64,000 nt of DNA from Halobacteriovorax sp. (GCA_024686135.1 JAIBDQ010000001.1:26985-90984), one strand, 5' to 3'; positions 22,365 to 34,681 are shown, counted from the stretch's first letter. Translations and numbers: made by a program. Notes: generated by a model from the sequence alone, not told the origin.

Positions 22365-23879
22365 TTAAAAGGCGAAATAGGCAGGGTTTCTTCCTGGTAC
22401 ATCAGGGGCAAACTGGCTAGAGGCCGATGGGGAGCCAAATCCCTGTCCTAAGGAGCCGTAGTAGCTATCCGGTCCTATCTCTCCCCAATATGTATTTTGT
22501 GGGTTACGGGCCGAATGATAGAGGAATGAGTCCATTCCTTGCTTTGGCATATAGTAGTAACTATTAACCTGTGTATTTCCTTGATTAAAATCAAATGGAC
22601 TTGCTCCAGGCTGGCTCCACATTTTATTCATCATGGCGAGTCTCATATAAGAGTTCCAGTCCACCATGCTTGAATCTGTTAGTGGATTTTGATTTACCAC
22701 TGGCATTTGCGGCGCAGGTGCTTGGTTGGCAAGCATTGCATACATCGTGAATTGCTTCATTAATGCTGCGATTTGCGCTTTCTCTTTTTTACGTTTTTCT
22801 GCCATATCTTCTTTTTCTTTTTTAAGGGCAGCAACTACTTTATCGATTTCTTTTTTATCTTCTTCAAAGTCGGTAACTTGCTTTTTTAATTCCTTAAGCT
22901 GTTTTTGTTGCTCGCATTCTGCAATTCTTAGGTCAGCAAGTTGAGCCCCCTGAGTTTCAATCTCTGTTGATTGTGAAGCTATTTTAGTTTCTTGCTCAGT
23001 AATCTTTGTATCTTGTTCTTCAATCTTCTTTTCTTTACTTTGAAGATCATCGCTTAAGGCAGCTACTTGAACTTCAAGACTGGTAATTTCGTCTTCAGCG
23101 AGACCTAATTCTTCATTAGTTAAGTTAAGCTCATCTTGAAGACCAGCAAATTCAGTTTTTAATCCTTCAAGTTCAGCTAGAGCATTTTCTTTAGCTTCTG
23201 TTTGAGAAGCAAGTTGCGCAGTAAGAGTTGCGATATCATTCTCTAGTTGCTCTTTAACTTTAGCGTGGTCTTTATTGGCAGTATCGAGGGCCAATAGCGC
23301 TTCTTTCTTAAGTAGTAATTCTTCATTAATTCTAGCGTCTCTAACTTCAATATCGGCAGCACGGCCTTCTTTTTCAGACTTTAGATTACTTTTGATGGCA
23401 GCGATGTCTGCTTCGAGTGCATTCTTTTCTTTGGCATGCATTTTCTTAACGGCAATCATATCAGACTGAAGGCGAGAACGTTCTTCATCTAGCTTTTTAA
23501 TATCGTTTAAGGCCAGGGCAATTATATGGGCAGCAGCACTATTCTTAGACTTTAAAGCAGCAACTTCTCTAGACTTCTTTTTTATCTCAGCATCTTTAGC
23601 TTTGATCTGCGCTTTAAGTTTAGCACTGTCATTTATGTACATACGTATTGATTCAACATAGCGCTTTCTTTTATAGATAAGTCCTAGGGGGGTAACAATT
23701 AGGATCTCTTCCTCAATCATTTTATCTTGAGCAACTGCAACTTCCGAAGCAATACCTCTAGAGGCAAGGGTGAGGCTGTGCTTGGCAGGGGTAGGTATTG
23801 TATTAACTGCATGTGAGACAAGACCCACGGCCACAAGGCAAAAGCAGTAAAAACCTAAACGCCATTTTGACATATTCAT
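22365..23879 (-). CDS. exported coiled-coil protein A with Met/aromatic/Gly-rich C-terminal module (unknown family)
   Basis: 504 aa. Hydrophobic N-terminus, about 300 aa of heptad-like K/E/A/L sequence, and a C-terminal module shared with ORF 24054-25124. SD GGAGAGAG precedes the ATG. Confidence 0.75.
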   Translation of the reverse strand: MNMSKWRLGFYCFCLVAVGLVSHAVNTIPTPAKHSLTLASRGIASEVAVAQDKMIEEEILIVTPLGLIYKRKRYVESIRMYINDSAKLKAQIKAKDAEIKKKSREVAALKSKNSAAAHIIALALNDIKKLDEERSRLQSDMIAVKKMHAKEKNALEADIAAIKSNLKSEKEGRAADIEVRDARINEELLLKKEALLALDTANKDHAKVKEQLENDIATLTAQLASQTEAKENALAELEGLKTEFAGLQDELNLTNEELGLAEDEITSLEVQVAALSDDLQSKEKKIEEQDTKITEQETKIASQSTEIETQGAQLADLRIAECEQQKQLKELKKQVTDFEEDKKEIDKVVAALKKEKEDMAEKRKKEKAQIAALMKQFTMYAMLANQAPAPQMPVVNQNPLTDSSMVDWNSYMRLAMMNKMWSQPGASPFDFNQGNTQVNSYYYMPKQGMDSFLYHSARNPQNTYWGEIGPDSYYGSLGQGFGSPSASSQFAPDVPGRNPAYFAF

Positions 23880-23917: not shown

Positions 23918-23932
23918 GCAAGTGGCGTGCCA
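23918..23932 (-). promoter_or_regulatory. sigma-54-type -24/-12 promoter of coiled-coil gene A
   Basis: Minus strand reads TGGCACGCCACTTGC, an exact match to TGGCACG-N4-TTGC. The element ends 38 nt upstream of the ATG. Confidence 0.6.
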
Positions 23933-23988
23933 ATTTTAAGGGGGTAACTAGTTGAATTTATCTTTGGGAATGGTAATTTTTATAAGGC

Positions 23989-24005
23989 TGTCTAAAATTT
24001 AGACA
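23989..24005. promoter_or_regulatory. 17-bp perfect palindrome TGTCTAAA-A-TTTAGACA (candidate activator/regulator site)
   Basis: 8+1+8 inverted repeat centred about 66 bp upstream of the -24 GG. Related copies at 25237-25253 and 33119-33135. Confidence 0.4.
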
Positions 24006-24053
24006 CCCCCATGCGCATACTATGGCAGCAGAGGGGTGTCTTATATTTATTGA

Positions 24054-25124
24054 TTAATTAAAGTCAAAAAATTCTGAACCAACATTTCCTCTGCCTGCAG
24101 TAGGAACTGTCTGAGTATAGTTTGTTCCATCTATCACTGGCATTAGCCTTGGCATAGATGAAGCAGCTGGGTTTCTAGATTCTAGGATAGAATTATCAAA
24201 GCTAGGAGCTTCAAATCCACCGCTAGTTCCGATTCCTGGATAACCACCAAACCCGTAACCCATACCAGATCCACCCAGGTAATAAGTGTTAACCTGTGAC
24301 CTTGGTGCAGCAGCTTGTGGTCTATTCATCATGGACATTAACATGAACATTGAGAAAGGATCATTTCCAGCAGGAGCTAAAAGAGCAGGGGGTGATACTT
24401 CAAAAAATGAGTTTTGTTGACCTTGAATATGGGCAAAAAGCTGAGCATAAGTCATAACGTCTGCGCTAAAACCAGCTTGGGCATCTACATCTACTTCAGC
24501 GTCTTCATCAACCTCTGCCACTACATCTTCTTTATCTTTAAGAAGCTCGGCGATTTGTCCTTTAATATCCTCTAGTAAACCTTTGTTTTCACAAATCCTT
24601 TCGCTAGTAGCTGCTAAGGCAGCCTTTTGCTCTAGAAGTTCTGTTTCTTGGGCCTTAGAGATTTTTAAATTAAGCTTTTCTTTAACTTCGGCTGGGTAGA
24701 AATCGACCATCTCTTTAACAAGAGCATCGAAAGCTGGTTTATTTTCGTGTTCTGCCTTATCTGAAAAGAAACTTCTAAAGTCAGCAGAACGTGTTAAAAG
24801 ACGTGTTCCTTCAACTCCAAGTTCCTCTACTTCTTCGTCTCTCATCTGGATCAATTCACTTAATCCCGTATCTTCTGCATCTAAACGATTATGAAACTTT
24901 GTTCTGAATTCCTTATGGGTTTCAACTAATTTTTTGAAAGAAGAAAGCTCTACATCAACATTTTCAGCTGTTACAGCCTCAAACTCAACTGCATTGGCGA
25001 TTGTTCTAAAGATAGATGGGCTCCAATTGCCTGCAACAGACGAATGGTCGTAAACCACATTAGATCCAAAGGTAAACCCTAAAACTGAAAGTGCGAGAGC
25101 ACCCTTTGCTAGCATGGACTTCAT
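24054..25124 (-). CDS. exported coiled-coil protein B, paralogue of A in its C-terminal module
   Basis: 356 aa. Signal peptide, acidic coiled-coil middle, C-terminal segments alignable with protein A (MMNRPQ/MMNKMW, QVNTYY/QVNSYY, RNPA). SD GAGGAGAG. Confidence 0.75.
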   Translation of the reverse strand: MKSMLAKGALALSVLGFTFGSNVVYDHSSVAGNWSPSIFRTIANAVEFEAVTAENVDVELSSFKKLVETHKEFRTKFHNRLDAEDTGLSELIQMRDEEVEELGVEGTRLLTRSADFRSFFSDKAEHENKPAFDALVKEMVDFYPAEVKEKLNLKISKAQETELLEQKAALAATSERICENKGLLEDIKGQIAELLKDKEDVVAEVDEDAEVDVDAQAGFSADVMTYAQLFAHIQGQQNSFFEVSPPALLAPAGNDPFSMFMLMSMMNRPQAAAPRSQVNTYYLGGSGMGYGFGGYPGIGTSGGFEAPSFDNSILESRNPAASSMPRLMPVIDGTNYTQTVPTAGRGNVGSEFFDFN

Positions 25125-25160
25125 AATTCTCTCCTCATTAATTTATATGAGAAATTAGTT

Positions 25161-25175
25161 ACAAGAGTCGTGCCA
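25161..25175 (-). promoter_or_regulatory. sigma-54-type -24/-12 promoter of coiled-coil gene B (imperfect -12)
   Basis: Minus strand reads TGGCACGACTCTTGT (TGGCACG-N4-TTGT), at the same spacing to the ATG as in gene A. Confidence 0.45.
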
Positions 25176-25187
25176 TACAGAAATACT

Positions 25188-25218
25188 GGAAATTATAAAA
25201 GGCTCGGTTGAGCCTTTG
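25188..25218 (-). terminator. rho-independent terminator of the small exported ORF
   Basis: AAAGGCTC-AACC-GAGCCTTT hairpin followed by TTATAATTT on the minus strand. Confidence 0.6.
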
Positions 25219-25255
25219 GTAAAAAAGAAATGGTGCTGTCTAAACTTTTTACGAA

Positions 25256-25582
25256 TTAAAGATTTGAAGTTGAGTCGTCATCTTCGTTAAATGCTTGATC
25301 CATAGCATTCATATTGTCTGTAAAAGTTTGTTGGATCTTTTTCATAAGCTCTAACTCATGTTGAACTCTAACTTGCTCAATTTTCTTTCTAAGCATAGCT
25401 TCAGTTCTCTTTTCGAGTTTTTCTCTAAAAGCTTTTCTTCTCTCAGAAGGGCTCATCGTACGGGCAGCATACTGGCCATCGATACCTATAATATCGTTGT
25501 TAACTCTTTGAACATTGTTCGAAGCGGCCAAAAGATTAGCTGAAAAGAAAAGAGTCACTATAAAGATAAATGGCTTATTCAT
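25256..25582 (-). CDS. small exported coiled-coil protein (hypothetical)
   Basis: Signal peptide MNKPFIFIVTLFFSANLLAA, then a charged helical region. ATG 25582 is preferred over the TTG 25594 of the ORF track. Confidence 0.6.
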   Translation of the reverse strand: MNKPFIFIVTLFFSANLLAASNNVQRVNNDIIGIDGQYAARTMSPSERRKAFREKLEKRTEAMLRKKIEQVRVQHELELMKKIQQTFTDNMNAMDQAFNEDDDSTSNL

Positions 25583-25680
25583 GTTGCATCCCAACGGTAA
25601 ATTCTAAAAATCGCCTCAATATAGTGAAGGGTGTCAAGTTTGTCTAGGAGGATTGTAGATAATGACTCAGCTAATCTTCG

Positions 25681-26082
25681 TCACTTTTTCTTAGGGTGCT
25701 GCTTTTGGATCTTTTCAATCTCAGAGAGGACCTTATTAAAGTTACCATCATTGATGATGATCTCATTTACCCCTGATTCCGCTAGGCTAGCTGCCATCTC
25801 ATCATCTGCCTCCGGTAGAATGGCCAAGATCGGCAATTCGTCACGCCCGTGAATATTACGGAGAAGTCCTACGATCTCTTCTGCTGGCATGTCTTCTGCC
25901 TCGTCCCCTTGGAGAATAACTAGGTCAAAAGGATGTTTTTCCACGAGATGGATGGCCTGAAAGCCTCCTCCTGCAAGTTCCACATTAAAGGCCTGCATTC
26001 TAAACCTTGAGCTGGTCTGCTTCTTGCGGGTGTCGTTCCCATCAATATAGAGAATATTATATTCTTCAGTTAGTGCTGACAT
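25681..26082 (-). CDS. stand-alone receiver-domain protein with degenerate phospho-acceptor pocket
   Basis: 133 aa from ATG 26082; the longer ORF-track version runs into tRNA-Gly. Receiver-like beta/alpha pattern, but hand alignment to CheY gives Q, L and N at the D57, T87 and K109 positions. Confidence 0.65.
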   Translation of the reverse strand: MSALTEEYNILYIDGNDTRKKQTSSRFRMQAFNVELAGGGFQAIHLVEKHPFDLVILQGDEAEDMPAEEIVGLLRNIHGRDELPILAILPEADDEMAASLAESGVNEIIINDGNFNKVLSEIEKIQKQHPKKK

Positions 26083-26126
26083 GGAGAGATTATCGCTAAA
26101 CTTAGATTTTGAGTAAAGAGGGAAAA

Positions 26127-26201
26127 TGGAGCGGCGACCGAGGGTCGAACTCGGGACCTTCTGCATGGCAAGCAGACGCACTACCACTGTGCTACCACCG
26201 C
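26127..26201 (-). tRNA. tRNA-Gly (anticodon GCC)
   Basis: 75-nt cloverleaf folded by hand. Acceptor GCGGTGG/TCGCCGC, D arm GCAC-AGTGGTA-GTGC, anticodon stem TCTGC/GCAGA with loop TTGCCAT, T arm CCGAG-TTCGACC-CTCGG, encoded CCA. Confidence 0.95.
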
Positions 26202-26257
26202 TCGATTAAAGGGATATTAATTATGGGTTGATTTTATGTCAATAATGTAATGGAGCG

Positions 26258-27064
26258 TTATTTTTTCCAGATTTTTTCTACCCATTCTGGGTGATCAATA
26301 AATGGGTTTCTATTTTTCTGAAACGTATATCCGCGATTATTTCTGTTTCTCTCGTGCTCACTTACAGGGTCCTGCTTATGCCACTTCAATAACATTCTTA
26401 CAAAGTGACCTTTGTAGACGCGGTCACGGCTACCATCTAGCCACTCGTGATGAAAGCTTTGGATTCGGTCTTCATATCTCGTGGCAAAATAAAGTAGTGA
26501 TCTTGCGATATCACCTTTGAATTCATCAATAGGTTCAAAAACTTTATTCCCAACATTTTCAAAAATATTTGTTCCTATTTTTGAGCCGTTCTTAGATGTC
26601 CATATTGCAACTTTTCCAACTTCACCAAAAGATAGGTGGCCTCTTCTATTGTTTACATATCCGTCTGAAGGATAAACGTGGAAGAAGTCTGAACGCATTG
26701 GTTTTCCTTTACTAAAGGAAGACTGAGGAAAGATATGTTCTCTATTGTAGCAGTCTGCTTCTTTCTTATAGTTTCCACATCTTTTTTTAGGAGAGTTAAA
26801 AATATAAGGATCTTTACCGTTTGGATTTTCAGAATACATATCAACAATAGAACCATCACCATCATAAGTCGTATCACGATCAGTTTCTTTGTAAGCATGA
26901 AATAGAGCGCCGTAGCTTTGTGATTTATGTGTTCGGGAGATGATTATTTTAAGGGCGGATTTTAATTGGTAGCCAGAGAGGCCTTCAACATTACTATAGT
27001 AATTTTTTGCTGCTATCGCTGAATTTGAAAATAAAACAGCAAAAATAATTATAAACTTATTCAC
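26258..27064 (-). CDS. secreted endonuclease I family nuclease (EndA/Vvn-like), paralogue 1
   Basis: Signal peptide. YNREHIFPQS, FEP..EFKGDIARSLLYF and NRNPFIDHPEW motifs. GTG start follows GAGGGG. Confidence 0.85.
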   Translation of the reverse strand: MNKFIIIFAVLFSNSAIAAKNYYSNVEGLSGYQLKSALKIIISRTHKSQSYGALFHAYKETDRDTTYDGDGSIVDMYSENPNGKDPYIFNSPKKRCGNYKKEADCYNREHIFPQSSFSKGKPMRSDFFHVYPSDGYVNNRRGHLSFGEVGKVAIWTSKNGSKIGTNIFENVGNKVFEPIDEFKGDIARSLLYFATRYEDRIQSFHHEWLDGSRDRVYKGHFVRMLLKWHKQDPVSEHERNRNNRGYTFQKNRNPFIDHPEWVEKIWKK

Positions 27065-27124
27065 TCTGCACCCCTCAATCCAGCTATTAAGTTAAACTTA
27101 TAGGGGCCATAAGGCAAATCTTGA

Positions 27125-28219
27125 CTAACGCAGGGGTTCAACCTTAATAAGGGCTCCTTCCTTATTTATAAGGACCCCTTCAAAATCAAAAGCTTCAGGG
27201 TTATAGGCTGGGGTTTTTCCCTCCCCGCCAGGTATATCTATGACGTACTGAGGTATCATCCAACCAGGTAAGTCATTTCTAAGTTGATGATAAAGATAAC
27301 GCCCTTCTGTAAGACTCAAATAAAAATGCATTCCACCTTTTACTCGATCAGGATGGTGTAAGTAGTAAGGAGTGATGCCGATATCGCTTAAGGCAGTAAA
27401 CAAACTTTTTAAAGACAAGAGGTCATCATTAACGTCTTTGAGTAAAACCGTTTGCGATAGTAGTTTTGCACCAGTCTTTTTTAGTTTTATCAATGAAGCT
27501 CTTACTTCATCATCTAGTTCATCCGTATGATTTGTATGTACTGCAATAATCAAATTGAAAAACTTCTTTTTATAACGAGAAAGTAATTGGCATAAGTCTT
27601 CCGTTACCCGGCTTGGAAGGATTACGGGAGTTCTTGAATGAATTCTTAAATACTTTAGATTTGGTAACTTAGAGAACTCTTCAAAAAGAACTTTTAGCTT
27701 TTCATCACTTAAAATAAGAGGGTCACCCCCTGATAGAATAACCTCATTAACTTCTGGGTTTTCAATTAAATAATTTATGGCCTCTTTTAATTGCCCTTCA
27801 AAAAGATAGGAAGGCTCCGCTAATTCATTTTTTCTAAAGCAATAACGGCAGTTGATTGGGCAAAAAGGAGTGGGAAAAAAAAGCAGTCGATTCTTATAGC
27901 GATGAATGATCTTTCCAGGCTTTGAGTGGATATTATCTCCGATGGGGTCGTTCATTCCTTGCGAACTTGTTTCTTCTTTTTCAGGAACAAATTGCTTCCA
28001 AAGGGGACTGCTCTTTCCAGCTTTTTTAATTTTATGAGCAAAGCTTTTCGGAATAAAAACTGGGTAATTGGTTCTAGGTAGTTTGCAGTTTAAGTGTTTT
28101 TCTAGCTCCGAGTTGGTTTTAATAGCTTCTTTTAATTCGAGCTTCCAAGCAACATGAGATTTATTTTGAGATAAATGACTTTTGGATTCTTGTTCGTTTA
28201 ATAAATTAAGGCCGAACAT
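27125..28219 (-). CDS. KamA-family radical SAM lysine 2,3-aminomutase (EpmB-like)
   Basis: CPINCRYCFRK radical-SAM cluster, HRYKNRLL upstream motif, GGDPL. ATG 28219 has SD AAGAGGG 5 nt upstream; the ORF-track TTG 28324 has none. Confidence 0.85.
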   Translation of the reverse strand: MFGLNLLNEQESKSHLSQNKSHVAWKLELKEAIKTNSELEKHLNCKLPRTNYPVFIPKSFAHKIKKAGKSSPLWKQFVPEKEETSSQGMNDPIGDNIHSKPGKIIHRYKNRLLFFPTPFCPINCRYCFRKNELAEPSYLFEGQLKEAINYLIENPEVNEVILSGGDPLILSDEKLKVLFEEFSKLPNLKYLRIHSRTPVILPSRVTEDLCQLLSRYKKKFFNLIIAVHTNHTDELDDEVRASLIKLKKTGAKLLSQTVLLKDVNDDLLSLKSLFTALSDIGITPYYLHHPDRVKGGMHFYLSLTEGRYLYHQLRNDLPGWMIPQYVIDIPGGEGKTPAYNPEAFDFEGVLINKEGALIKVEPLR

Positions 28220-28445
28220 TTCCGCCCTCTTTAATGAACTGTCTTTTTCCCCACCAAGCGCAGCCTCTAATAAGGGCAGCACCATAAATGGCCATTCCAA
28301 AAAAGTGGTACATGACTTCTTCAATGGTTCCTTGACCGGTTTCTGTTAAGGCGTAGTGGATCCACTTTAAAAGGATTAGATGCAGCACTAGAATAATAAG
28401 CTGTTGTATTCTTAACCCAATATTGTCTTTGTTTATTAAAGTCAT
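28206..28445 (-). CDS. possible small membrane protein (hypothetical)
   Basis: 79-aa ORF with two hydrophobic segments. It fills the gap between the exonuclease and kamA-like genes. No SD seen. Confidence 0.3.
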   Translation of the reverse strand: MTLINKDNIGLRIQQLIILVLHLILLKWIHYALTETGQGTIEEVMYHFFGMAIYGAALIRGCAWWGKRQFIKEGGNVRP

Positions 28446-28468
28446 ACTTTTAAATATAATGTGAAACG

Positions 28469-29359
28469 TTAATTGTTAAGTAACTTCTCTCGTTCAATCT
28501 GTTCTTGGGTACTTAGGGTCTTGTATTCCGCGATTTTCTTAACAGCAAAGGACTTATACAAGTTGCTAACTAAACAATGGGCATAGAGAATTAGCCCGTC
28601 AGGCATGGGAAGGAGGCTAATCGGTCTAACCGGTCTAAATTTTCCCTTCATGCTTCCGCCTTTGTATTTGATATCAATCATTTCTTGGCTTGCCACAAGA
28701 GGTTCAAGTCCTTTGATCTGTCTTGGGATATCTAGTTCTGCGTTCTCATCAAAACTATTCATCTCAAATAAAAAAGCGCTGTTTAAAATCTTTGTATTTT
28801 TCTTTTGTTCAAAATAAGTATGAAGCGCCTTAGTAAAAACATGCAAGCAAGCCTTCGCATCATCAAGGGCACGATGATGATTTTCTAATTTAATATCAAG
28901 CTTCTCAACTAGAGTTGCTAACTTGTGATTAGGAAATTCTGTAAAAACTTTTCTTGAAAGAGCGCAGGAGCAATAGACCTTAGCTGCGGGTAAATTCAAT
29001 TTATTTTGAAGCATATCAAAGACGATAAAACCCACATCGAACTTGGCGTTATGGGCGATTAGTGGAAAGCCAGCGATAAAATCTACAAATTCTGGAATTA
29101 CTGAATCAATCTTTGGGGCATCCGCCACCATCTCATCAGTTATGTTATGGATCTCAGTCGTGAAGGGAGGAATGGGAATTCCGGGCTGAATCAGCTTATC
29201 AAAAGTCTCAAAACCGTCCTGTGTGACCTTTATTCCAGAAATCTCGATGATTCTATCAACTAAGGGTGAGAGCCCAGTTGTCTCCAGGTCAAAGGCTACG
29301 ACGCCCTGTGGGAAAAAATGGCGGAGGATGTCTAATTCGTCGCTACTAAGATGTTTCAA
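28469..29359 (-). CDS. DnaQ/epsilon-like DEDDh 3'-5' exonuclease with extra C-terminal domain
   Basis: Exo motifs FDLETTG, HNAKFDVGF and HRALDDA, plus about 100 aa of unassigned C-terminal sequence. TTG start. Confidence 0.8.
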   Translation of the reverse strand: MKHLSSDELDILRHFFPQGVVAFDLETTGLSPLVDRIIEISGIKVTQDGFETFDKLIQPGIPIPPFTTEIHNITDEMVADAPKIDSVIPEFVDFIAGFPLIAHNAKFDVGFIVFDMLQNKLNLPAAKVYCSCALSRKVFTEFPNHKLATLVEKLDIKLENHHRALDDAKACLHVFTKALHTYFEQKKNTKILNSAFLFEMNSFDENAELDIPRQIKGLEPLVASQEMIDIKYKGGSMKGKFRPVRPISLLPMPDGLILYAHCLVSNLYKSFAVKKIAEYKTLSTQEQIEREKLLNN

Positions 29360-29399
29360 AAACGTTCCAGATATTAAAGACTTAGGGGCTTTGCTGTCG

Positions 29400-29428
29400 T
29401 TGACAACGGAGCCTTACAGCCTTAAAAA
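29400..29428 (+). promoter_or_regulatory. candidate sigma-70 promoter of lpdA-E2
   Basis: TTGACA, 17-nt spacer, TAAAAA, located 60 nt upstream of the lpdA ATG. Confidence 0.35.
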
Positions 29429-29487
29429 GTGTTTTAATATTAAAGACATATAGCCCAAAACGCTTAAAGGTACAAACGAGACAATCC

Positions 29488-30882
29488 ATGAAAAGTTTTG
29501 ACGTTATCGTCCTCGGCTCAGGTCCCGGGGGATATATTGCGGCCATCCGCGCTTCGCAATTAGGAAAAAAAGTTGCCATCATCGAAGCTGAAGAGCTTGG
29601 TGGGGTTTGTTTGAATAAAGGTTGTATTCCAACCAAGGCCGTTCTTAAGTCGGCCCATTCTGTTCATGAGCTTGATGATATGAAGTCTCTTGGAATTGAT
29701 TTTGATTTAAAGTCAGTTAAGCTTGATGGCGCAGTAGCAGTCAAAAGAGCGAAAGGAATTAGCGACAGAATTTCTAAAGGTGTTGGTTTTCTTATGAAGA
29801 AAAACAAGATCGAAGTTATCTCTGGCCTTGGAATTCTTACGGGTCCAAATACCGTTGAAGTAAAAAACAAAAAAGGTCATTCAGAATCTTTTGGTTTTAA
29901 AAATATGATTATCGCCACCGGCGCACATTATAGAACTTTCCCTGGTCTAGAGCATGATGGGAAAAGACTTATTGGTGCTTGGGAAGCGATTAAAATGGAA
30001 GAGCTTCCAAAAAGTATTGGAATTATCGGTGCCGGGGCTATCGGTGTAGAGTTTGCTTATTTTTGGAACGCCTTTGGTGTAGATGTTCATATCTTTGAAT
30101 TACAAAAGAACCTACTCCCCATAGAAGATACAGACTCCTCTAAGGCCGTTGAGAAGGCTTATAAAAAGTACGGAATCAAGATGTCTCTTGGTGTAGAGAA
30201 AGTTGAGGCGAAGTCCACTTCTAAGGAAGTTGTTATTACAGCTGTGGAAGGTGGAAAAAAGATCGAATACAAATTTGAAAAAGGTCTTATTGCTGTTGGT
30301 ATGACGGGTAATATTGAAAATATAGGTTTAGAGAAACTTGGAATAAAGACTGATCGTGGTTTTATTCAGGTAAATGATATGCACCAAACTAACCTTCCAC
30401 ATGTTTACGCCATTGGTGATGTTAGTGGACCACCACTTCTTGCCCATGCAGCTTCTCACGAAGGAGTGATTGCAGCTGAGCATATGAGTGGGGGACATCC
30501 TCATGCTATGGATAAGATGAATATTCCAGGTTGTACTTATTGTCAGCCGCAGGTCGCTTCTATTGGTTATACGGAACGCGCTCTTAAGGAAAAAGGAATC
30601 GAATACAAAGTTGGAAATGTTCCATTTGTGGCTAACGGAAAAGCAGTAGCTTCAAATGAGAAAGATGGGTTTGTAAAAACTCTTATTGGTAAGCACGGTG
30701 AAATGCTTGGGGCCCATATTGTTGGAACTCACGCCACTGAACTAATACATGAATATGCCCTTTTTAAAACGATGGAAGGGATTGATGAAGAAATATTTGC
30801 TACGGTTCACCCGCACCCAACTCTTGGAGAGTTTTTAGCGGAGTCTGTCTTAGCAGCAAAGGGACGCGCCCTTAATTATTAA
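29488..30882 (+). CDS. lpdA: dihydrolipoyl dehydrogenase (E3)
   Basis: GSGPGGY FAD motif, redox-active GGVCLNKGCIPTK, second GAGAIGVE dinucleotide fold, C-terminal HPHPTL. Confidence 0.95.
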   Translation: MKSFDVIVLGSGPGGYIAAIRASQLGKKVAIIEAEELGGVCLNKGCIPTKAVLKSAHSVHELDDMKSLGIDFDLKSVKLDGAVAVKRAKGISDRISKGVGFLMKKNKIEVISGLGILTGPNTVEVKNKKGHSESFGFKNMIIATGAHYRTFPGLEHDGKRLIGAWEAIKMEELPKSIGIIGAGAIGVEFAYFWNAFGVDVHIFELQKNLLPIEDTDSSKAVEKAYKKYGIKMSLGVEKVEAKSTSKEVVITAVEGGKKIEYKFEKGLIAVGMTGNIENIGLEKLGIKTDRGFIQVNDMHQTNLPHVYAIGDVSGPPLLAHAASHEGVIAAEHMSGGHPHAMDKMNIPGCTYCQPQVASIGYTERALKEKGIEYKVGNVPFVANGKAVASNEKDGFVKTLIGKHGEMLGAHIVGTHATELIHEYALFKTMEGIDEEIFATVHPHPTLGEFLAESVLAAKGRALNY

Positions 30883-30899
30883 ATAATACGGAGTAAAAT

Positions 30900-32237
30900 A
30901 TGGCCAAACATGAAATCGTAATGCCTCAGATGGGTGAATCAATTACTAACGGAACCATCACAACTTGGCATAAGAAACCAGGAGATGAAATCGACCTGGA
31001 TGAAATCCTTCTTGAGATCTCTACTGATAAAGTTGAATCTGAAATCCCTTCTCCAATGAAGGGACGTGTTTGGGAAGTTCTTTTTCCTGAAGGTGAAACA
31101 GTTGATGTTGGAATAAAGATCGCTGTTATTGAAGATGATCTAAGCCTTGCTTTCGATGGAAGCTCTACACCAGCAGCAAGTGCATCAGCCCCTGCTGCTC
31201 CTGCAGAAACTCCGAAAGCTGAAGCCCCAGCAGCACCTGCGGCTGCACCAGCACCCGCTGCTACGAATGATACCGGGACACCGGACGGTCGTTTCTACAC
31301 TCCACTTGTTAAGGCCATGGCCGCTGAAGCGGGTGTAGCCCTTTCTGAGCTAGCTAATGTAGCAGGTACAGGAGCAGGGGGAAGAGTTAATAAAGCAGAC
31401 TTTTTAAAATTCTTAGATAGCCGTGGTTCGGCTCCTACTCAAAGCGCAGCTGCGCCGGTTGCTGCGGCAACTGCCTCCGCACCTGCAGCAACTTCAGTTC
31501 CTGCTGGAGGAGTCGCTTCGGTTACGGCAAGTGGTGAGAGAGTGGAAATTATCCCAATGGATAATATGAGAAAGGCCATTGCTAAAAATATGGTTGAATC
31601 AAAATTAACTTCTCCACATGTAAACTCACTAGATGAAATCGATATGACTAATCTTGTGAAATTTAGAGAAGGATTTAAGAATGAGTTTAAGAAGCAAGAA
31701 GGCTTCTCCTTAACTTATACCCACTTTATTTTATACGCCTTAGTTCAGGCATTAAGAGAGCATCCTCTGGTTAACTCTTCAGTTGACGGAAATAATATCG
31801 TTGTTAAAAAAGATATTAACCTCGGTTGCGCTGTAGCCGTTCCTGGAAATGGATTGGTTGTTCCAACTATTAGGAGTGCTGACTCCTTGAACATTACGGG
31901 AATTGCCAGAAAGGTTAATGAACTCGCAGCAAAAGCTAGAAGTAAAAAACTTACTATGGATGAGCTAACTGGTGGAACATTTACTTTCACTAATGTTGGA
32001 TCTTTTGGAACGCTAATGGCGACCCCAGTTATTCTTCAGCCTCAGCTCGGAATCTTTGCTTCGGGTGTTATTAAAAAGCGTCCGGTTGTAAGAGGAGATG
32101 ATGCCATCGCGATCCGCTCTATGATGTACGGAACTCATACTTATGATCATAGAGTCGTAGATGGACAGCTCGGTGGGATGTTCCTTAACTCAGTTAAGTA
32201 CAACCTTGAGAATATGGACCCAAGCTCACTTTTTTAG
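30900..32237 (+). CDS. 2-oxoacid dehydrogenase E2 dihydrolipoamide acyltransferase
   Basis: One lipoyl domain (EISTDKVESEIPSP), Ala/Pro linkers, a peripheral subunit-binding domain (TPLVKAMAAEAGV...GTGAGGRV), and a catalytic domain with DHRVVDG. Confidence 0.9.
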   Translation: MAKHEIVMPQMGESITNGTITTWHKKPGDEIDLDEILLEISTDKVESEIPSPMKGRVWEVLFPEGETVDVGIKIAVIEDDLSLAFDGSSTPAASASAPAAPAETPKAEAPAAPAAAPAPAATNDTGTPDGRFYTPLVKAMAAEAGVALSELANVAGTGAGGRVNKADFLKFLDSRGSAPTQSAAAPVAAATASAPAATSVPAGGVASVTASGERVEIIPMDNMRKAIAKNMVESKLTSPHVNSLDEIDMTNLVKFREGFKNEFKKQEGFSLTYTHFILYALVQALREHPLVNSSVDGNNIVVKKDINLGCAVAVPGNGLVVPTIRSADSLNITGIARKVNELAAKARSKKLTMDELTGGTFTFTNVGSFGTLMATPVILQPQLGIFASGVIKKRPVVRGDDAIAIRSMMYGTHTYDHRVVDGQLGGMFLNSVKYNLENMDPSSLF

Positions 32238-32359
32238 AAAATTTCTCAATTGGCTGAAGACTTATAACGGGTTTTCAGCCACTTATCTTAATTTCTTAAG
32301 AATCTTAACCATACCTTTAACTACAGCGATTTATCGAAATGACCGATAATATAGGTAGG

Positions 32360-33013
32360 ATGAAACAAATAATATTGTCTTCTATTCTCTTCCTAAGCGC
32401 TTGTTCGATATTCGATAAAGCAGCTTATGAACAGGCTGAAATGGCTGCTAAGTCCAACCAAGTGGTGGATACCAGCTCATATTGGGAGTACCAGTATGTA
32501 ACCCTTGCTAAGTTCTACGAGGTTCAATGCGGAAAAGCTAAGGCCTCATTTGATAAATGGGTCAGCCAAAATGGCTTTGAGAAGGCTGATCAGGAGATAC
32601 CTAAACTCTGCACCCCAGTATCTGGTTTAGGCGAGCATACGGGCAAGTGTATGCCTGAGCAGGGGGATTTTACTTATAAGCTAAAAGACGTCAATGGAAG
32701 AACTGCTAGGGTGGACTTTATTGTCGCTGGAAAAAGATGTTTCGCAGATGTTCACATCCTAACTGAGGTTATTAAAAACCAAAATGGAAGAACTATTTGT
32801 CATAAGGGATCGAGCACAGAATGTGCCCTTTATCTCTCTAAAGTAGAGGGCGATAATACCTCATTCACAAGAGACATCGGTCATCAAGCAGATATCTATT
32901 TTAAGGAGATTGGTTTTAGAGGAAGACTCTTTAATTTTTATCATTTTGAGACGACCAAATCTGCTTTTGAAGAATCAAATAATTACCGAACTTATAGCTC
33001 CTCTCCCTACTAA
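32360..33013 (+). CDS. hypothetical Cys-containing lipoprotein
   Basis: MKQIILSSILFLSAC lipobox from ATG 32360. No recognised domain. Confidence 0.5.
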   Translation: MKQIILSSILFLSACSIFDKAAYEQAEMAAKSNQVVDTSSYWEYQYVTLAKFYEVQCGKAKASFDKWVSQNGFEKADQEIPKLCTPVSGLGEHTGKCMPEQGDFTYKLKDVNGRTARVDFIVAGKRCFADVHILTEVIKNQNGRTICHKGSSTECALYLSKVEGDNTSFTRDIGHQADIYFKEIGFRGRLFNFYHFETTKSAFEESNNYRTYSSSPY

Positions 33014-33139
33014 ACTCATTTAAACTGGCACCCTCTGTGCACTATAGAACCCATATAAAGAAGTTTACTTCTTAAGATGCTGGAAATCAGTGTGGTCTTT
33101 GCGAGTATATTGGACCAGTGTCTAAACTTTAGACGGAAT

Positions 33140-33841
33140 ATGGGCATGCGTTTTATTGTTATTCTATATTTACTTATGAGCATCCAGTCAGCTCATGCAA
33201 TTTTTGGAACTTCTGAATTCCCTTCAGATCCTATTTCGGTCTTTGAATTAGGCGTATCACAGTTAGAGAGGAAGAATTTTAAAAAGGCAGTAAAGACTTT
33301 TGATCACTTTTTATCAAAGCATTCGAATCACGACCTTTTTCCTAAAGCAAAAGTAAAGTACGGAGACGCTCTCTATGGAAATGAGAAGTACTTAAAAGCG
33401 CTACGTGTTTACGAGAGATCCCACTTAGAATCACCTCATAGCGAAGATGGGGCTCACACTCTTTTTAGAATGGGTCAATGTAACTTAAGGTTTATTTCTA
33501 AAGATAAAGGACAAAAGCATATTCCCTATGCCATTGCGGCCTTTGAAAGGTTTCTAACTCTTTATCCAGAAAACGAAAAAGTTGAGCAGGCCAAGAGGAA
33601 TATTTTAGCTGTGAAAAAAGTTGAGGCTGAATATCAAATTGAGGTGGGGAACTACTATTTTAGACATAAGGACTACTGCGCCGCTTTTAATCATTTTGAA
33701 AAAGTTTTGAAAATGAAAGACTATGGAACCTATAAGTCTGTAGATACTTATATTGCAAAATGCCAAGCCAAAGAGACTTGTCTAGATGAACTTGCCGTTT
33801 GCGAGTTTGATCTTAGGGAAGTCAATTCTCGGATGAAATAA
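33140..33841 (+). CDS. BamD/YfiO-like TPR outer-membrane assembly factor
   Basis: Signal peptide MGMRFIVILYLLMSIQSAHA. TPR-like helices, with FERFLTLYPENEKVEQAK and EYQIEVGNYYF segments resembling BamD. An upstream ATG at 33077 is also possible. Confidence 0.55.
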   Translation: MGMRFIVILYLLMSIQSAHAIFGTSEFPSDPISVFELGVSQLERKNFKKAVKTFDHFLSKHSNHDLFPKAKVKYGDALYGNEKYLKALRVYERSHLESPHSEDGAHTLFRMGQCNLRFISKDKGQKHIPYAIAAFERFLTLYPENEKVEQAKRNILAVKKVEAEYQIEVGNYYFRHKDYCAAFNHFEKVLKMKDYGTYKSVDTYIAKCQAKETCLDELAVCEFDLREVNSRMK

Positions 33842-34681
33842 TTAAAAGTTTTTTATTCTATCAACTAGATTTGGGAAATCGATAAAAGGATTTCTATTCC
33901 TTTGGATTTCAAAAATTGTTTGGTTTCTTTCTCTTTCTTCAGCATCGACAGGGTCAATTTCATGCCACTGTCTTAGATAAGCTTCTTGATGTTCTGAAAT
34001 CTTGATTTGGTAACGAATTGAAAAATAAAATAAGGCTCTCGCAACATTACCTTTATGTTCCGTAGGTGGTTCGAAATAATCATAACTACCCTTGGGAGTG
34101 CCTGAGTAGGAAGCTGCACAGTCATTTTCAAGAGGGTCACCATTAACATTTGCGAACTCGTTATTTCCTCGAACACTATTAGCTCTACTATCAGTAGGAA
34201 ATAAATGGTGAAGGTCTGACTTTTGAAGACCTTTTGGAAATCTTCCAGAGAACTTTGACTGGGGCCAAGTATGCTCACAATTGATTTGGCTGTGATTTGG
34301 AATAATATTTGGTCCAACTTGAGTCTGAGAATTCGTAACCTTTCTTCTGCAGTAAACGTCTTTAATATAATATCCGTCAGCGTCTTCCTCTAAATGAAGC
34401 TTTCCAAAAAGAACTTTTCTAGCTCCTCTGTATCCAAGAGATCTTTGCTCGTAACAATTTCCTTTTGGACCTTCAGCACAAGAACTAACGATGACATCGT
34501 CACCTTTTTTGACTCTAATATGTTTCTTTTCAAGAACATTAAAGAGAATCTCTTTTAGTTCTTGTCCGTTAACACTGGTATTTTTAAATTGTTGCTTAGT
34601 AGCGGTTGGGTAGTAATGAGAAACTGCGATAGCTTCCTGTGCCAATAGTAAGAATACGCTTACGACTAGTAATAACTTCAA
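33842..34681 (-). CDS. secreted endonuclease I family nuclease, paralogue 2
   Basis: Signal peptide. CEHTWPQSKF, DLHHLFPTD, FEPP..HKGNVARALFYF and NRNPFIDFP motifs. TTG start follows AGAGAGG. Confidence 0.85.
   Translation of the reverse strand: MKLLLVVSVFLLLAQEAIAVSHYYPTATKQQFKNTSVNGQELKEILFNVLEKKHIRVKKGDDVIVSSCAEGPKGNCYEQRSLGYRGARKVLFGKLHLEEDADGYYIKDVYCRRKVTNSQTQVGPNIIPNHSQINCEHTWPQSKFSGRFPKGLQKSDLHHLFPTDSRANSVRGNNEFANVNGDPLENDCAASYSGTPKGSYDYFEPPTEHKGNVARALFYFSIRYQIKISEHQEAYLRQWHEIDPVDAEERERNQTIFEIQRNRNPFIDFPNLVDRIKNF

What the first reader, a model, noticed from the sequence alone, without database searches (positions are those of the whole stretch)
23989..33135. Recurrent 17-bp palindrome TGTCTAAA-N-TTTAGAC(A/G) associated with the sigma-54-type promoters
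Three copies occur. Copy 1 is TGTCTAAAATTTAGACA (23989-24005), a perfect 8+1+8 inverted repeat. Copy 2 is TGTCTAAACTTTTTACG (25237-25253), identical to copy 3 at 15 of 17 positions but with a degenerate distal arm. Copy 3 is TGTCTAAACTTTAGACG (33119-33135), with a perfect GTCTAAA-C-TTTAGAC core. Copies 1 and 2 are centred about 66 and 71 bp upstream of the -24 GG of the two promoters. That places them at roughly -91 and -96 from the expected start sites, the usual geometry of enhancer-binding-protein upstream activating sequences. Copy 3 lies just upstream of the BamD-like ORF (ATG 33140) and about 80 bp downstream of a third, weaker match TGGCACCCTCTGTGCA (33026-33040, plus strand). The core also fits the GTC-N9-GAC / T-N11-A dyad typical of LysR-type regulator boxes, and two LysR genes lie in this window. 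TGT-N11-ACA is one nt longer than the NifA-type TGT-N10-ACA site.
Basis: partly seen in the sequence, partly recalled or inferred. Interest (0 to 1): 0.65.

Follow-up and report, generated by a model that had tools for sequence, protein, structure and literature searches.

The report
Conserved regulator site beside sigma-54 promoters
A 17-bp two-fold symmetric DNA motif sits at a fixed distance from three sigma-54-type promoters in a marine predatory bacterium (Halobacteriovorax) and is kept across related species, so it is most likely the docking site of a still unidentified transcription activator: a real but fairly ordinary kind of regulatory element.

Summary
GTCTAAA-N-TTTAGAC occurs at 23990-24004 and 33120-33134 (perfect) and at 25238-25252 (2 mismatches). 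That is 3 hits against 0.45 expected, and 0 of 100 shuffles reached 3. The window's only three TGGCAC-N5-TTGC-like sites each lie 66-100 bp from a copy.

The window is from a Halobacteriovorax. In 10 lineages (target protein 41-90% identical) all three promoters keep GG/GC, and the motif persists as YGT-N11-ACR. One arm is strong (TTTAGAC) and the other degenerate, so the perfect palindrome is specific to this species.

The motif centre lies 70-71 bp upstream of the -24 GG at promoter A in all 10 lineages. This holds although the spacer is only 37-43% identical between groups and the site is flipped in three lineages. At promoter B it lies 66-67 bp upstream, or 77 bp (plus one helical turn). 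At bamD it lies 100-101 bp downstream of the GG.

There are no compensatory changes and no stable RNA fold, so it is a protein-read DNA site. The best reading is an enhancer (UAS) for a sigma-54 activator (about 0.55). The main rival is another dimeric regulator such as a LysR or Fis-like protein (about 0.3). Copy 3 lies downstream at about +75 and abuts the ribosome-binding site, which is not classical enhancer geometry. The binding protein is unknown.

The parts
23989..24005 (.). Dyad copy 1 (TGTCTAAAATTTAGACA). Its centre is 66 bp upstream of the GG of promoter B, about -91 from the expected start.
   Evidence: Orthologous site kept in 9 lineages as TGT-N11-AC(A/G) with the strong arm TTTAGAC.
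25237..25253 (.). Dyad copy 2 (on the gene strand CGTAAAAAGTTTAGACA). Its centre is 71 bp upstream of the GG of promoter A, about -96. It starts 3 nt after the stop codon of the upstream 107-aa gene.
   Evidence: Kept in 10 lineages, inverted in L004/L006/L009, with a spacer of 60-61 nt in all.
33119..33135 (.). Dyad copy 3 (TGTCTAAACTTTAGACG). Its centre is 100 bp downstream of the GG of promoter C, about +75. Its right end abuts the bamD Shine-Dalgarno sequence.
   Evidence: The left arm CCA(G/C)TGTCTA is near-invariant in 7 lineages (L002 reads TGTCAA). The right arm drifts to TTAGGC/TTGGGC.
23918..23932 (-). Sigma-54-type promoter B (TGGCACGCCACTTGC) for the 504-aa secreted coiled-coil gene.
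   Evidence: Orthologues keep TGGCA(C/T)-N5-TTGC with variable spacers.
25161..25175 (-). Sigma-54-type promoter A (TGGCACGACTCTTGT) for the 356-aa secreted protein gene.
   Evidence: Nearly invariant, including the spacer GACTC, in 10 lineages.
33026..33041 (+). Sigma-54-type promoter C (TGGCACCCTCTGTGCA) for bamD.
   Evidence: TGGCA(C/T)-N6-TGCA is kept with variable spacers in 7 lineages.
24001..24041 (-). Conserved GC-rich hairpin just after the stop of the 356-aa gene. Its 3' arm overlaps the first 5 nt of dyad copy 1. It is a likely terminator or 3'-end structure with an unusually conserved loop.
   Evidence: -24.4 kcal/mol, z -3.7. (14 pairs, 2 with compensatory changes). No Rfam match.
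23943..23958 (-). IHF-like box (AATTCAACTAGTTACC, WATCAR-N4-TTR-like) between dyad 1 and promoter B.
   Evidence: Read from the sequence; conserved block (mean identity 0.76). The consensus comparison is from memory and is not a test.
23971..23986 (-). A/T tract plus TTACCA box on the promoter side of dyad 1.
   Evidence: Conserved block (0.86 identity).
25217..25226 (-). T6 tract plus TTACCA box on the promoter side of dyad 2. The T6 run sits at +19..+25 from the dyad centre in all lineage groups.
25198..25217 (-). Terminator-like hairpin between dyad 2 and promoter A (window and closest relative only).
   Evidence: Compensatory differences against L002 are seen. Not conserved in more distant lineages (identity 0.26).
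24054..25124 (-). Target gene of promoter A: a 356-aa secreted protein of unknown function.
22365..23879 (-). Target gene of promoter B: a 504-aa membrane-anchored or secreted coiled-coil protein, a distant paralogue of the 356-aa protein.
33146..33841 (+). Target gene of promoter C: bamD (YfiO family).
   Evidence: (TIGR03302 91.4 bits against a cut-off of 81.4).

Best explanation
The dyad is a DNA site read by a dimeric helix-turn-helix protein, most likely the DNA-binding domain of a sigma-54 enhancer-binding protein (bEBP). One subunit makes strong contacts with TTTAGAC(A/G). The partner subunit makes weaker contacts with the YGT end. The A/T-rich centre gives the narrow minor groove typical of Fis/NtrC-type HTH dimers.

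From about -92/-96 the bound activator would reach the closed sigma-54 holoenzyme complex by DNA looping. An adjacent A/T tract, and at promoter B an IHF-like box, would help the loop form. The activator would then switch on two paralogous secreted coiled-coil protein genes. The same protein probably also binds about +75 in the bamD leader, acting either as a downstream enhancer or as a brake.

Shown here: the motif, its conservation, its fixed spacing to conserved sigma-54-type promoters, and its DNA-level rather than RNA-level nature. Inferred: the identity of the binding protein, looping, and the direction of regulation.
For: (1) The dyad is over-represented, and the window's only three sigma-54-like sites each lie next to one.
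(2) All three promoters are conserved, with GG and GC fixed and the spacers changing at B and C.
(3) There is a phylogenetic footprint. Dyads show 0.78-0.91 mean pairwise identity against 0.50-0.60 for the remaining intergenic columns, and 0.26 for the A spacer core.
(4) Spacing is conserved. At A it is 70-71 bp in 10 lineages, with spacers only 37-43% identical between groups. At B it is 66-67 bp, or 77 bp in L003 and L011, which is a 10-bp insertion equal to one helical turn. At C it is 100-101 bp.
(5) Function appears orientation-independent. The asymmetric site is inverted in L004/L006/L009 at the same distance.
(6) In 21 distinct site instances G-7, T-6, T+2, T+3, G+5 and C+7 are invariant. 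82.5% of cells are symmetric in register against 24-52% when slid, and there is no compensatory change. Folding the dyads as RNA is no better than shuffles.
(7) The 17-bp span equals that of the NtrC-type dyad (TGC-N11-GCA, from memory). The sequence fits the Fis-type pattern GNNYAWWWWWTRNNC (consensus forms found in PMC3302801 and PMC2816674).
(8) rpoN is present in the sequenced relative B. marinus SJ (PMC3526173).
Against: No bEBP gene was found in the window or in the fetched neighbourhoods. Only one dyad is present per promoter, whereas many bEBPs use two or more sites. Copy 3 is downstream of its promoter and abuts the ribosome-binding site. A related site D in three relatives has no sigma-54 promoter. 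Promoters A and B belong to paralogous genes, so they are not fully independent cases. There are no transcript or start-site data. Genome-wide enrichment could not be tested. The PWM that found no further sites was built from the sites themselves.
Confidence: 0.55

Rival explanations
1. The dyad is the operator of a dimeric regulator that is not a bEBP, such as a LysR-type protein, a Fis-like nucleoid protein or a repressor. This regulator co-regulates a small envelope gene set. The proximity to sigma-54 promoters reflects shared control regions rather than enhancer action.
For: T-N11-A / TGT-N11-ACA is a published LysR recognition pattern (PsrA, PMC8754645). The site fits the Fis consensus. 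Copy 3 at +75, next to the ribosome-binding site, looks like a roadblock or repressor position. Site D has no sigma-54 promoter. In lineage group 1 of region A, a conserved TATAAT (25192-25197, minus strand) with TTACCA 19 nt upstream would put the dyad near -60 of a possible sigma-70 promoter.
Against: Strict distance conservation to the -24 element holds across sequence turnover and site inversion at A. The one-helical-turn insertion at B points the same way. No conserved sigma-70 promoter is present at B, or at A in groups 2 and L008. The two LysR genes in the window are 4-13 kb from the sites and have no such site in their own control regions. They are absent from the gene lists returned for the fetched orthologous loci.
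Confidence: 0.3
2. The palindromes act at the RNA level: as terminator parts for the upstream genes (copies 1 and 2), and as a hairpin masking the bamD ribosome-binding site (copy 3).
For: Copies 1 and 2 lie in the 3' regions of upstream genes. The A/T centre of copy 1 follows a strong conserved hairpin and could serve as its U-tract. At copy 3 the right-arm changes in relatives are A-to-G opposite U. These changes keep wobble pairing on the sense strand, and there the arm contains the Shine-Dalgarno sequence.
Against: Folding energies of the dyads are no better than shuffles: -5.6 kcal/mol with z +0.4 for copy 3, and 0 kcal/mol for copy 2. There is no compensatory change in 21 instances. The degenerate arm breaks pairing at A and B. 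An inverted site at the same distance from promoter A makes no sense for an RNA element.
Confidence: 0.07
3. The recurrence is chance in an AT-rich genome, or a dispersed or mobile repeat, or a recombination site.
For: The half-site is at chance frequency. AT-rich DNA produces partial palindromes easily.
Against: 0 of 100 shuffles gave 3 dyads. The sites are orthologously conserved in up to 10 lineages. No other copies occur in 64 kb or in about 130 kb of related loci. No recombinase gene lies nearby, and no rearrangement joints occur at the sites in metagenome contigs (low power).
Confidence: 0.03

Closest known systems
NtrC-type and NifA-type upstream activator sequences of sigma-54 promoters (TGCACC-N5-GGTGCA; TGT-N10-ACA; consensus from memory)
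   Same: A dyad-symmetric site about 90-100 bp upstream of a -24/-12 promoter. The 17-bp span equals NtrC's TGC-N11-GCA, and the outer TGT/ACA triplets match NifA's. Function is orientation-independent, spacing is phase-preserving, and an IHF-like box lies between site and promoter.
   Different: The sequence differs from both, and the spacing is one base longer than NifA's. There is only one site per promoter. One arm is degenerate. One copy lies downstream of its promoter.
FleQ box GTCaNTAAAtTGAC of Pseudomonas (PMC8125075, PMC6120874)
   Same: GTC...GAC ends with an A/T-rich TAAA-containing centre, bound by a bEBP. FleQ sites occur both upstream and downstream of promoters and can activate or repress (the position and activate/repress statement is from memory).
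   Different: The FleQ box is 14 bp (GTC-N8-GAC); this site is GTC-N9-GAC. No flagellar genes are at these promoters, and no FleQ homologue was identified here.
Caulobacter ftr enhancer elements bound by FlbD (from memory)
   Same: Enhancer elements about 100 bp from sigma-54 promoters that occur upstream or downstream of the start site. Some act negatively.
   Different: The sequence and organism are unrelated, and those elements control flagellar genes.
LysR-type recognition sites, T-N11-A (for example PsrA TGT-N11-ACA, PMC8754645)
   Same: An identical outer pattern, TGT-N11-ACA, with interrupted dyad symmetry.
   Different: LysR sites normally sit near -65 of sigma-70 promoters with a second site near -35, often next to the divergent regulator gene. 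None of this is conserved here.
Fis binding consensus GNtYAaWWWtTRaNC (PMC2816674)
   Same: A 15-bp core with G at -7, C at +7, Y-4/A-3 and T+3/R+4, and an A/T-rich centre. The HTH of NtrC-family activators is of the Fis type (Pfam HTH_8, from memory).
   Different: The T-6/A+6 conservation and the strong asymmetry are not Fis features. Fis proper is not known from this phylum (from memory; not tested).

Membership tests
bEBP upstream activating sequence (sigma-54 enhancer) | A genuine sigma-54 (-24 GG / -12 GC) promoter next to the site | tested here: met
   Three matches. GG/GC and their spacing are conserved in 7-10 lineages, with variable spacers at B and C. Transcription start not mapped.
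bEBP upstream activating sequence (sigma-54 enhancer) | Site located about 80-150 bp upstream of the start site | tested here: inconclusive
   Met for copies 1 and 2 (about -91 and -96). Not met for copy 3 (about +75).
bEBP upstream activating sequence (sigma-54 enhancer) | Works independently of orientation, with helical-phase constraints | tested here: met
   Comparative evidence only. The site is inverted in L004/L006/L009 at the same 70 bp. A 10-bp insertion occurs at B in L003/L011.
bEBP upstream activating sequence (sigma-54 enhancer) | Bound by an AAA+ activator with a C-terminal HTH | not testable with these tools
   No bEBP gene in the window or loci. Binding needs EMSA or DAP-seq.
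bEBP upstream activating sequence (sigma-54 enhancer) | Regulon-wide association of the motif with sigma-54 promoters | not tested
   Only 64 kb plus about 130 kb of related loci were available. All 3 sigma-54 sites of the window carry the motif, and there are no extra motif copies. No whole genome was on hand.
NifA UAS | TGT-N10-ACA | tested here: not met
   The spacing is N11 in all 21 instances.
FleQ box | 14-bp GTCaNTAAAtTGAC (GTC-N8-GAC) | tested here: not met
   The core here is GTC-N9-GAC. Consensus from PMC8125075.
LysR-type operator | T-N11-A dyad | tested here: met
   T-6 and A+6 are conserved in 17 of 21 instances. The pattern has low information content.
LysR-type operator | Regulator gene adjacent or divergent and autoregulated through the same site | tested here: not met
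   The LysR genes at 37.4-39.2 kb lack the motif upstream. They are not in the syntenic loci.
Intrinsic terminator / RNA hairpin | Stable stem with compensatory changes (plus a U-tract) | tested here: not met
   The dyads fold no better than shuffles. There are 0 compensatory pairs in 21 instances. The neighbouring hairpin at 24001-24041 does meet this feature.
Dispersed repeat (REP/MITE-like) | Many copies at unrelated positions | tested here: not met
   There are three copies in 64 kb, all intergenic and all at promoters.

The most novel reading that the evidence does not exclude
One unidentified activator uses a single asymmetric 17-bp site in two ways. It acts as an upstream enhancer (-92/-96) for two paralogous secreted coiled-coil proteins. 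It also acts as an element fixed at +75 inside the leader of the essential outer-membrane assembly gene bamD, touching its ribosome-binding site. This would couple sigma-54-dependent envelope remodelling to a life-cycle signal in a predatory bacterium. A sigma-54-driven bamD with a conserved downstream enhancer or brake would be unusual.
Probability: 0.25. Interest if true: 0.55.

Novelty: new member of a known kind. Interest (0 to 1): 0.4.

Why it matters
Gene regulation in marine Bdellovibrio-like predators is almost unexplored. The searches run here found no paper on a sigma-54 regulon or its activator sites in Halobacteriovorax.

This element gives a concrete, testable handle: a defined motif, three conserved sigma-54 promoters and a small target set. 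The targets are two secreted coiled-coil paralogues and BamD, which fits the idea that sigma-54 controls the cell exterior (PMC3162934). It also offers a natural case of an enhancer-like site conserved downstream of its promoter.

It is not a new principle of regulation.

Tried and rejected
(1) RNA family search of 22-35 kb found only a tRNA and nothing at the dyads or the hairpin.
(2) RNA-hairpin or terminator role for the dyads was rejected on folding energy and absence of covariation.
(3) Sigma-70 -35 reading of TAGACA was rejected. There is no -10 element at a proper distance, and the site is inverted in three lineages.
(4) Sigma-28 reading (TAAA-N15-GCCGATAA, from memory) found no -10 element (read from the sequence).
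(5) An antisense sigma-54 promoter in the hairpin loop fails on spacing and GC (read).
(6) Invertible or excisable segment bounded by copies 1 and 2: there is no recombinase gene and no joints in contigs.
(7) LysR link: no motif at the LysR genes.
(8) The search for a local bEBP or other DNA-binding protein in the cluster found none. The small neighbours are secreted proteins or a zinc-ribbon protein.
(9) RNA-seq for start sites: no RNA runs exist for this organism.
(10) The metagenome scan with BamD returned only the same species as L002.
(11) Sequence search of the target proteins against solved structures gave nothing useful.
Full report
**1. Observation**

GTCTAAANTTTAGAC with up to 2 mismatches gives 3 hits in 64 kb: 23990-24004 and 33120-33134 (perfect) and 25238-25252 (2 mismatches). 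The expectation is 0.45, and none of 100 dinucleotide-preserving shuffles reached 3. The half-site alone is at chance (15 found, 14.9 expected), so the signal lies in the dyad arrangement.

TGGCAC-N5-TTGC with up to 1 mismatch occurs three times in the window: 23918-23932(-), 25161-25175(-) and 33026-33040(+). That number is not above chance (1.82 expected). However, each match lies 66-100 bp from one of the three dyads.

**2. Setting**

The window has about 38% G+C and comes from a Halobacteriovorax. The closest genome hit is MAG Halobacteriovorax sp. SP2999, with 90% protein identity. Reads with this sequence come from seawater metagenomes.

Copies 1 and 2 flank a minus-strand gene for a 356-aa secreted protein of unknown function (24054-25124).
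- Promoter A lies upstream of that gene.
- Promoter B lies upstream of the next gene, a 504-aa coiled-coil protein (22365-23879). This protein is a distant paralogue of the 356-aa one (24% identity over 148 aa, E 2e-5).
- Promoter C and copy 3 precede bamD (TIGR03302 at 91.4 bits, above its cut-off).

No sigma-54 activator gene was found among the window's larger ORFs or in the related loci. Two LysR genes lie at 37.4-39.2 kb. rpoN is present in the sequenced relative B. marinus SJ (PMC3526173).

**3. Comparative evidence**

Homologues of the 356-aa protein (41-90% identical) and of BamD (55-84%) were used to fetch orthologous loci. Synteny (REC, 107-aa gene, 356-aa gene, coiled-coil gene, 83-aa gene, DUF3015 gene, then RecJ) is conserved.

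The promoters are conserved:
- Promoter A is TGGCACGACTCTTGTA in nearly all of 10 lineages.
- Promoter B keeps TGGCA(C/T)-N5-TTGCT with a changing spacer.
- Promoter C keeps TGGCA(C/T)-N6-TGCA with a changing spacer.

Fixed GG/GC with free spacers is the expected signature of real sigma-54 promoters.

The dyad is conserved at all three places, but not as a perfect palindrome. Across 21 non-identical instances the invariant positions are G-7, T-6, T+2, T+3, G+5 and C+7, with A-3 and A+4 at 90% or more. That gives YGT-N11-ACR with one strong arm TTTAGAC(A/G) and one degenerate arm. At site B, the left arm GTCTAAA occurs only in the window and L002 (L011 has GTCTAAT); elsewhere it is GTATATA, GTATAAT or GTTTAAT.

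The dyads are clear footprints. Their mean pairwise identity is 0.78-0.91, against 0.50-0.60 for the unassigned intergenic columns and 0.26 for the core of the A spacer.

**4. Geometry**

- **Promoter A.** The dyad centre lies 70-71 bp upstream of the first G of the -24 GG in all 10 lineages. The spacer is always 60-61 nt, although it is only 37-43% identical between lineage groups. In L004, L006 and L009 the asymmetric site is inverted (TGTCTAATTTCCTGACG) at the same distance.
- **Promoter B.** The distance is 66-67 bp, or 77 bp in L003 and L011. Those two carry a 10-bp insertion, which equals one helical turn.
- **Promoter C.** The centre lies 100-101 bp downstream of the GG in 7 lineages. 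That is near +75, with the right arm abutting or forming the bamD Shine-Dalgarno sequence.

Other conserved features:
- A T6 or A/T tract sits at a fixed offset (+19 to +25) on the promoter side of the dyad at A and B.
- An IHF-like box (AATTCAACTAGTTACC) lies between dyad and promoter at B. The IHF consensus comparison is from memory.

**5. DNA site or RNA structure?**

In register, 82.5% of arm positions are complementary, against 24-52% when one arm is slid. No pair shows a compensatory change. The dyads folded as RNA are no more stable than shuffles: copy 3 context -5.6 kcal/mol with z +0.4, and copy 2 at 0 kcal/mol. The sequence is therefore conserved rather than the pairing, as expected for a protein-read DNA site.

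A strong conserved hairpin is a separate feature. It follows the stop codon of the 356-aa gene at 24001-24041 on the minus strand (-24.4 kcal/mol, z -3.7). It has 14 pairs, 2 with compensatory changes, and an unusually conserved loop. Its 3' arm supplies the TGTC of copy 1. The base at dyad position -5 covaries with the 5' arm of the hairpin, which explains why the left arm of copy 1 varies between species. Rfam has no match for this hairpin.

**6. Mechanism**

The best-supported reading is an enhancer (UAS) for a sigma-54 activator whose Fis-type HTH dimer binds the 17-bp dyad.
- The span equals that of the NtrC site (TGC-N11-GCA, from memory).
- The core fits the Fis-type pattern G-7, Y-4/A-3, A/T centre, T+3/R+4, C+7 (consensus forms in PMC2816674 and PMC3302801).
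- The position (-91/-96), orientation independence, phase-preserving insertion and bendable A/T tract fit DNA looping to the closed complex.

These steps are inferred. No binding or transcript data exist.

Several facts weaken the reading:
- There is a single site per promoter.
- No activator gene lies nearby.
- Copy 3 is downstream of its promoter.
- A related site D (TGTCTAAAAA-N3-AACA) upstream of a 135-aa gene in L004, L006 and L009 has no sigma-54 promoter.
- Promoters A and B are not fully independent, because their genes are paralogues.

**7. Rivals**

- **A non-bEBP dimeric regulator.** This could be LysR-type, since TGT-N11-ACA is published for PsrA (PMC8754645), or a Fis-like protein or a repressor. 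It remains plausible, at about 0.3, especially for copy 3. The window's two LysR genes have no such site in their own control regions and are not linked to the sites.
- **RNA-level roles** are unlikely, at about 0.07.
- **Chance, a dispersed repeat or a recombination site** is very unlikely. No extra copies occur in about 200 kb, and no joints occur at the sites.

**8. Comparison with known systems, and novelty**

The element works like an NtrC/NifA-type UAS. It resembles the FleQ box GTCaNTAAAtTGAC (PMC8125075) and the TyrR-box style TGTAAA...TTTACA (from memory). It fails the spacing test for NifA (N10) and for FleQ (GTC-N8-GAC). It is therefore a new motif of a known kind, in an organism group for which these searches found no described sigma-54 activator sites.

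Interest is moderate. The element is real and well conserved, and it has one unusual feature: the fixed downstream site at the bamD ribosome-binding site. It is not a new principle.

Noticed in passing
window 24001-24041 (minus strand): A strong hairpin lies right after the stop of the 356-aa gene (-24.4 kcal/mol, z -3.7). Its loop is conserved (CTGCTGCCA..GCGCAyGG) in 9 lineages, and the stem shows compensatory C:G to T:A changes. There is no Rfam match. It is more conserved than an ordinary terminator, and its function is unknown.
   Followed up: partly
window 25161-25175 (minus strand) and orthologues: Promoter A is nearly invariant across 10 lineages, including its 5-nt spacer GACTC. The spacers of promoters B and C vary freely. 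This suggests an extra overlapping constraint or binding site at promoter A.
   Followed up: no
window 25192-25197 (minus strand, TATAAT within TATAATTTC) and 25217-25222 (TTACCA): A conserved perfect -10-like TATAAT lies 19 nt downstream of a conserved TTACCA, between dyad 2 and promoter A, in six lineages. It may be a second, sigma-70-type promoter, which would put the dyad near -60.
   Followed up: partly
window 33071-33087: A conserved box CTTAAGA-NN-CTGGAAAT lies in the bamD leader, about +20 to +37 from the predicted start. It is preceded by a small hairpin (AAGAAGT-TT-ACTTCTT). Function unknown.
   Followed up: no
L004 8443-8459, L006 8444-8460, L009 5190-5206: A fourth related dyad (TGTCTAAAAA-N3-AACA) lies upstream of a 135-aa secreted-protein gene that is absent from the window. 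No sigma-54 promoter is seen next to it.
   Followed up: partly
window 24054-25124 and 22365-23879 (minus strand): The two promoter targets are distant paralogues. Each has a signal or anchor sequence, a coiled coil, a Met/Pro-rich segment and a Gly/Tyr-rich tail. They have no Pfam family and no solved relative. They form a lineage-specific envelope protein family of Bacteriovoracaceae.
   Followed up: partly
window 26127-26201 (minus strand): tRNA-Gly(GCC) overlaps the 5' end of the mechanical ORF 25681-26187. The real stand-alone receiver (REC) gene is therefore shorter, about 132 aa as in the relatives.
   Followed up: yes
window 26258-27064 (minus strand) and 33842-34681 (minus strand): Two Endonuclease I family genes lie within 8 kb. 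The second is divergent and lies tail to tail with bamD. This fits a predator that degrades prey DNA.
   Followed up: no
window 33077 / 33140 / 33146: The longest bamD ORF starts at 33077, but that ATG is not conserved. ATG 33146 (MRFIV...) matches the closest relative and has a GGA Shine-Dalgarno sequence 7 nt upstream.
   Followed up: yes
window 23600-23840: Metagenome contigs of related strains skip or replace about 170-230 bp in the 5' part of the 504-aa gene. This points to strain-level length variation in the N-terminal region of that protein.
   Followed up: no
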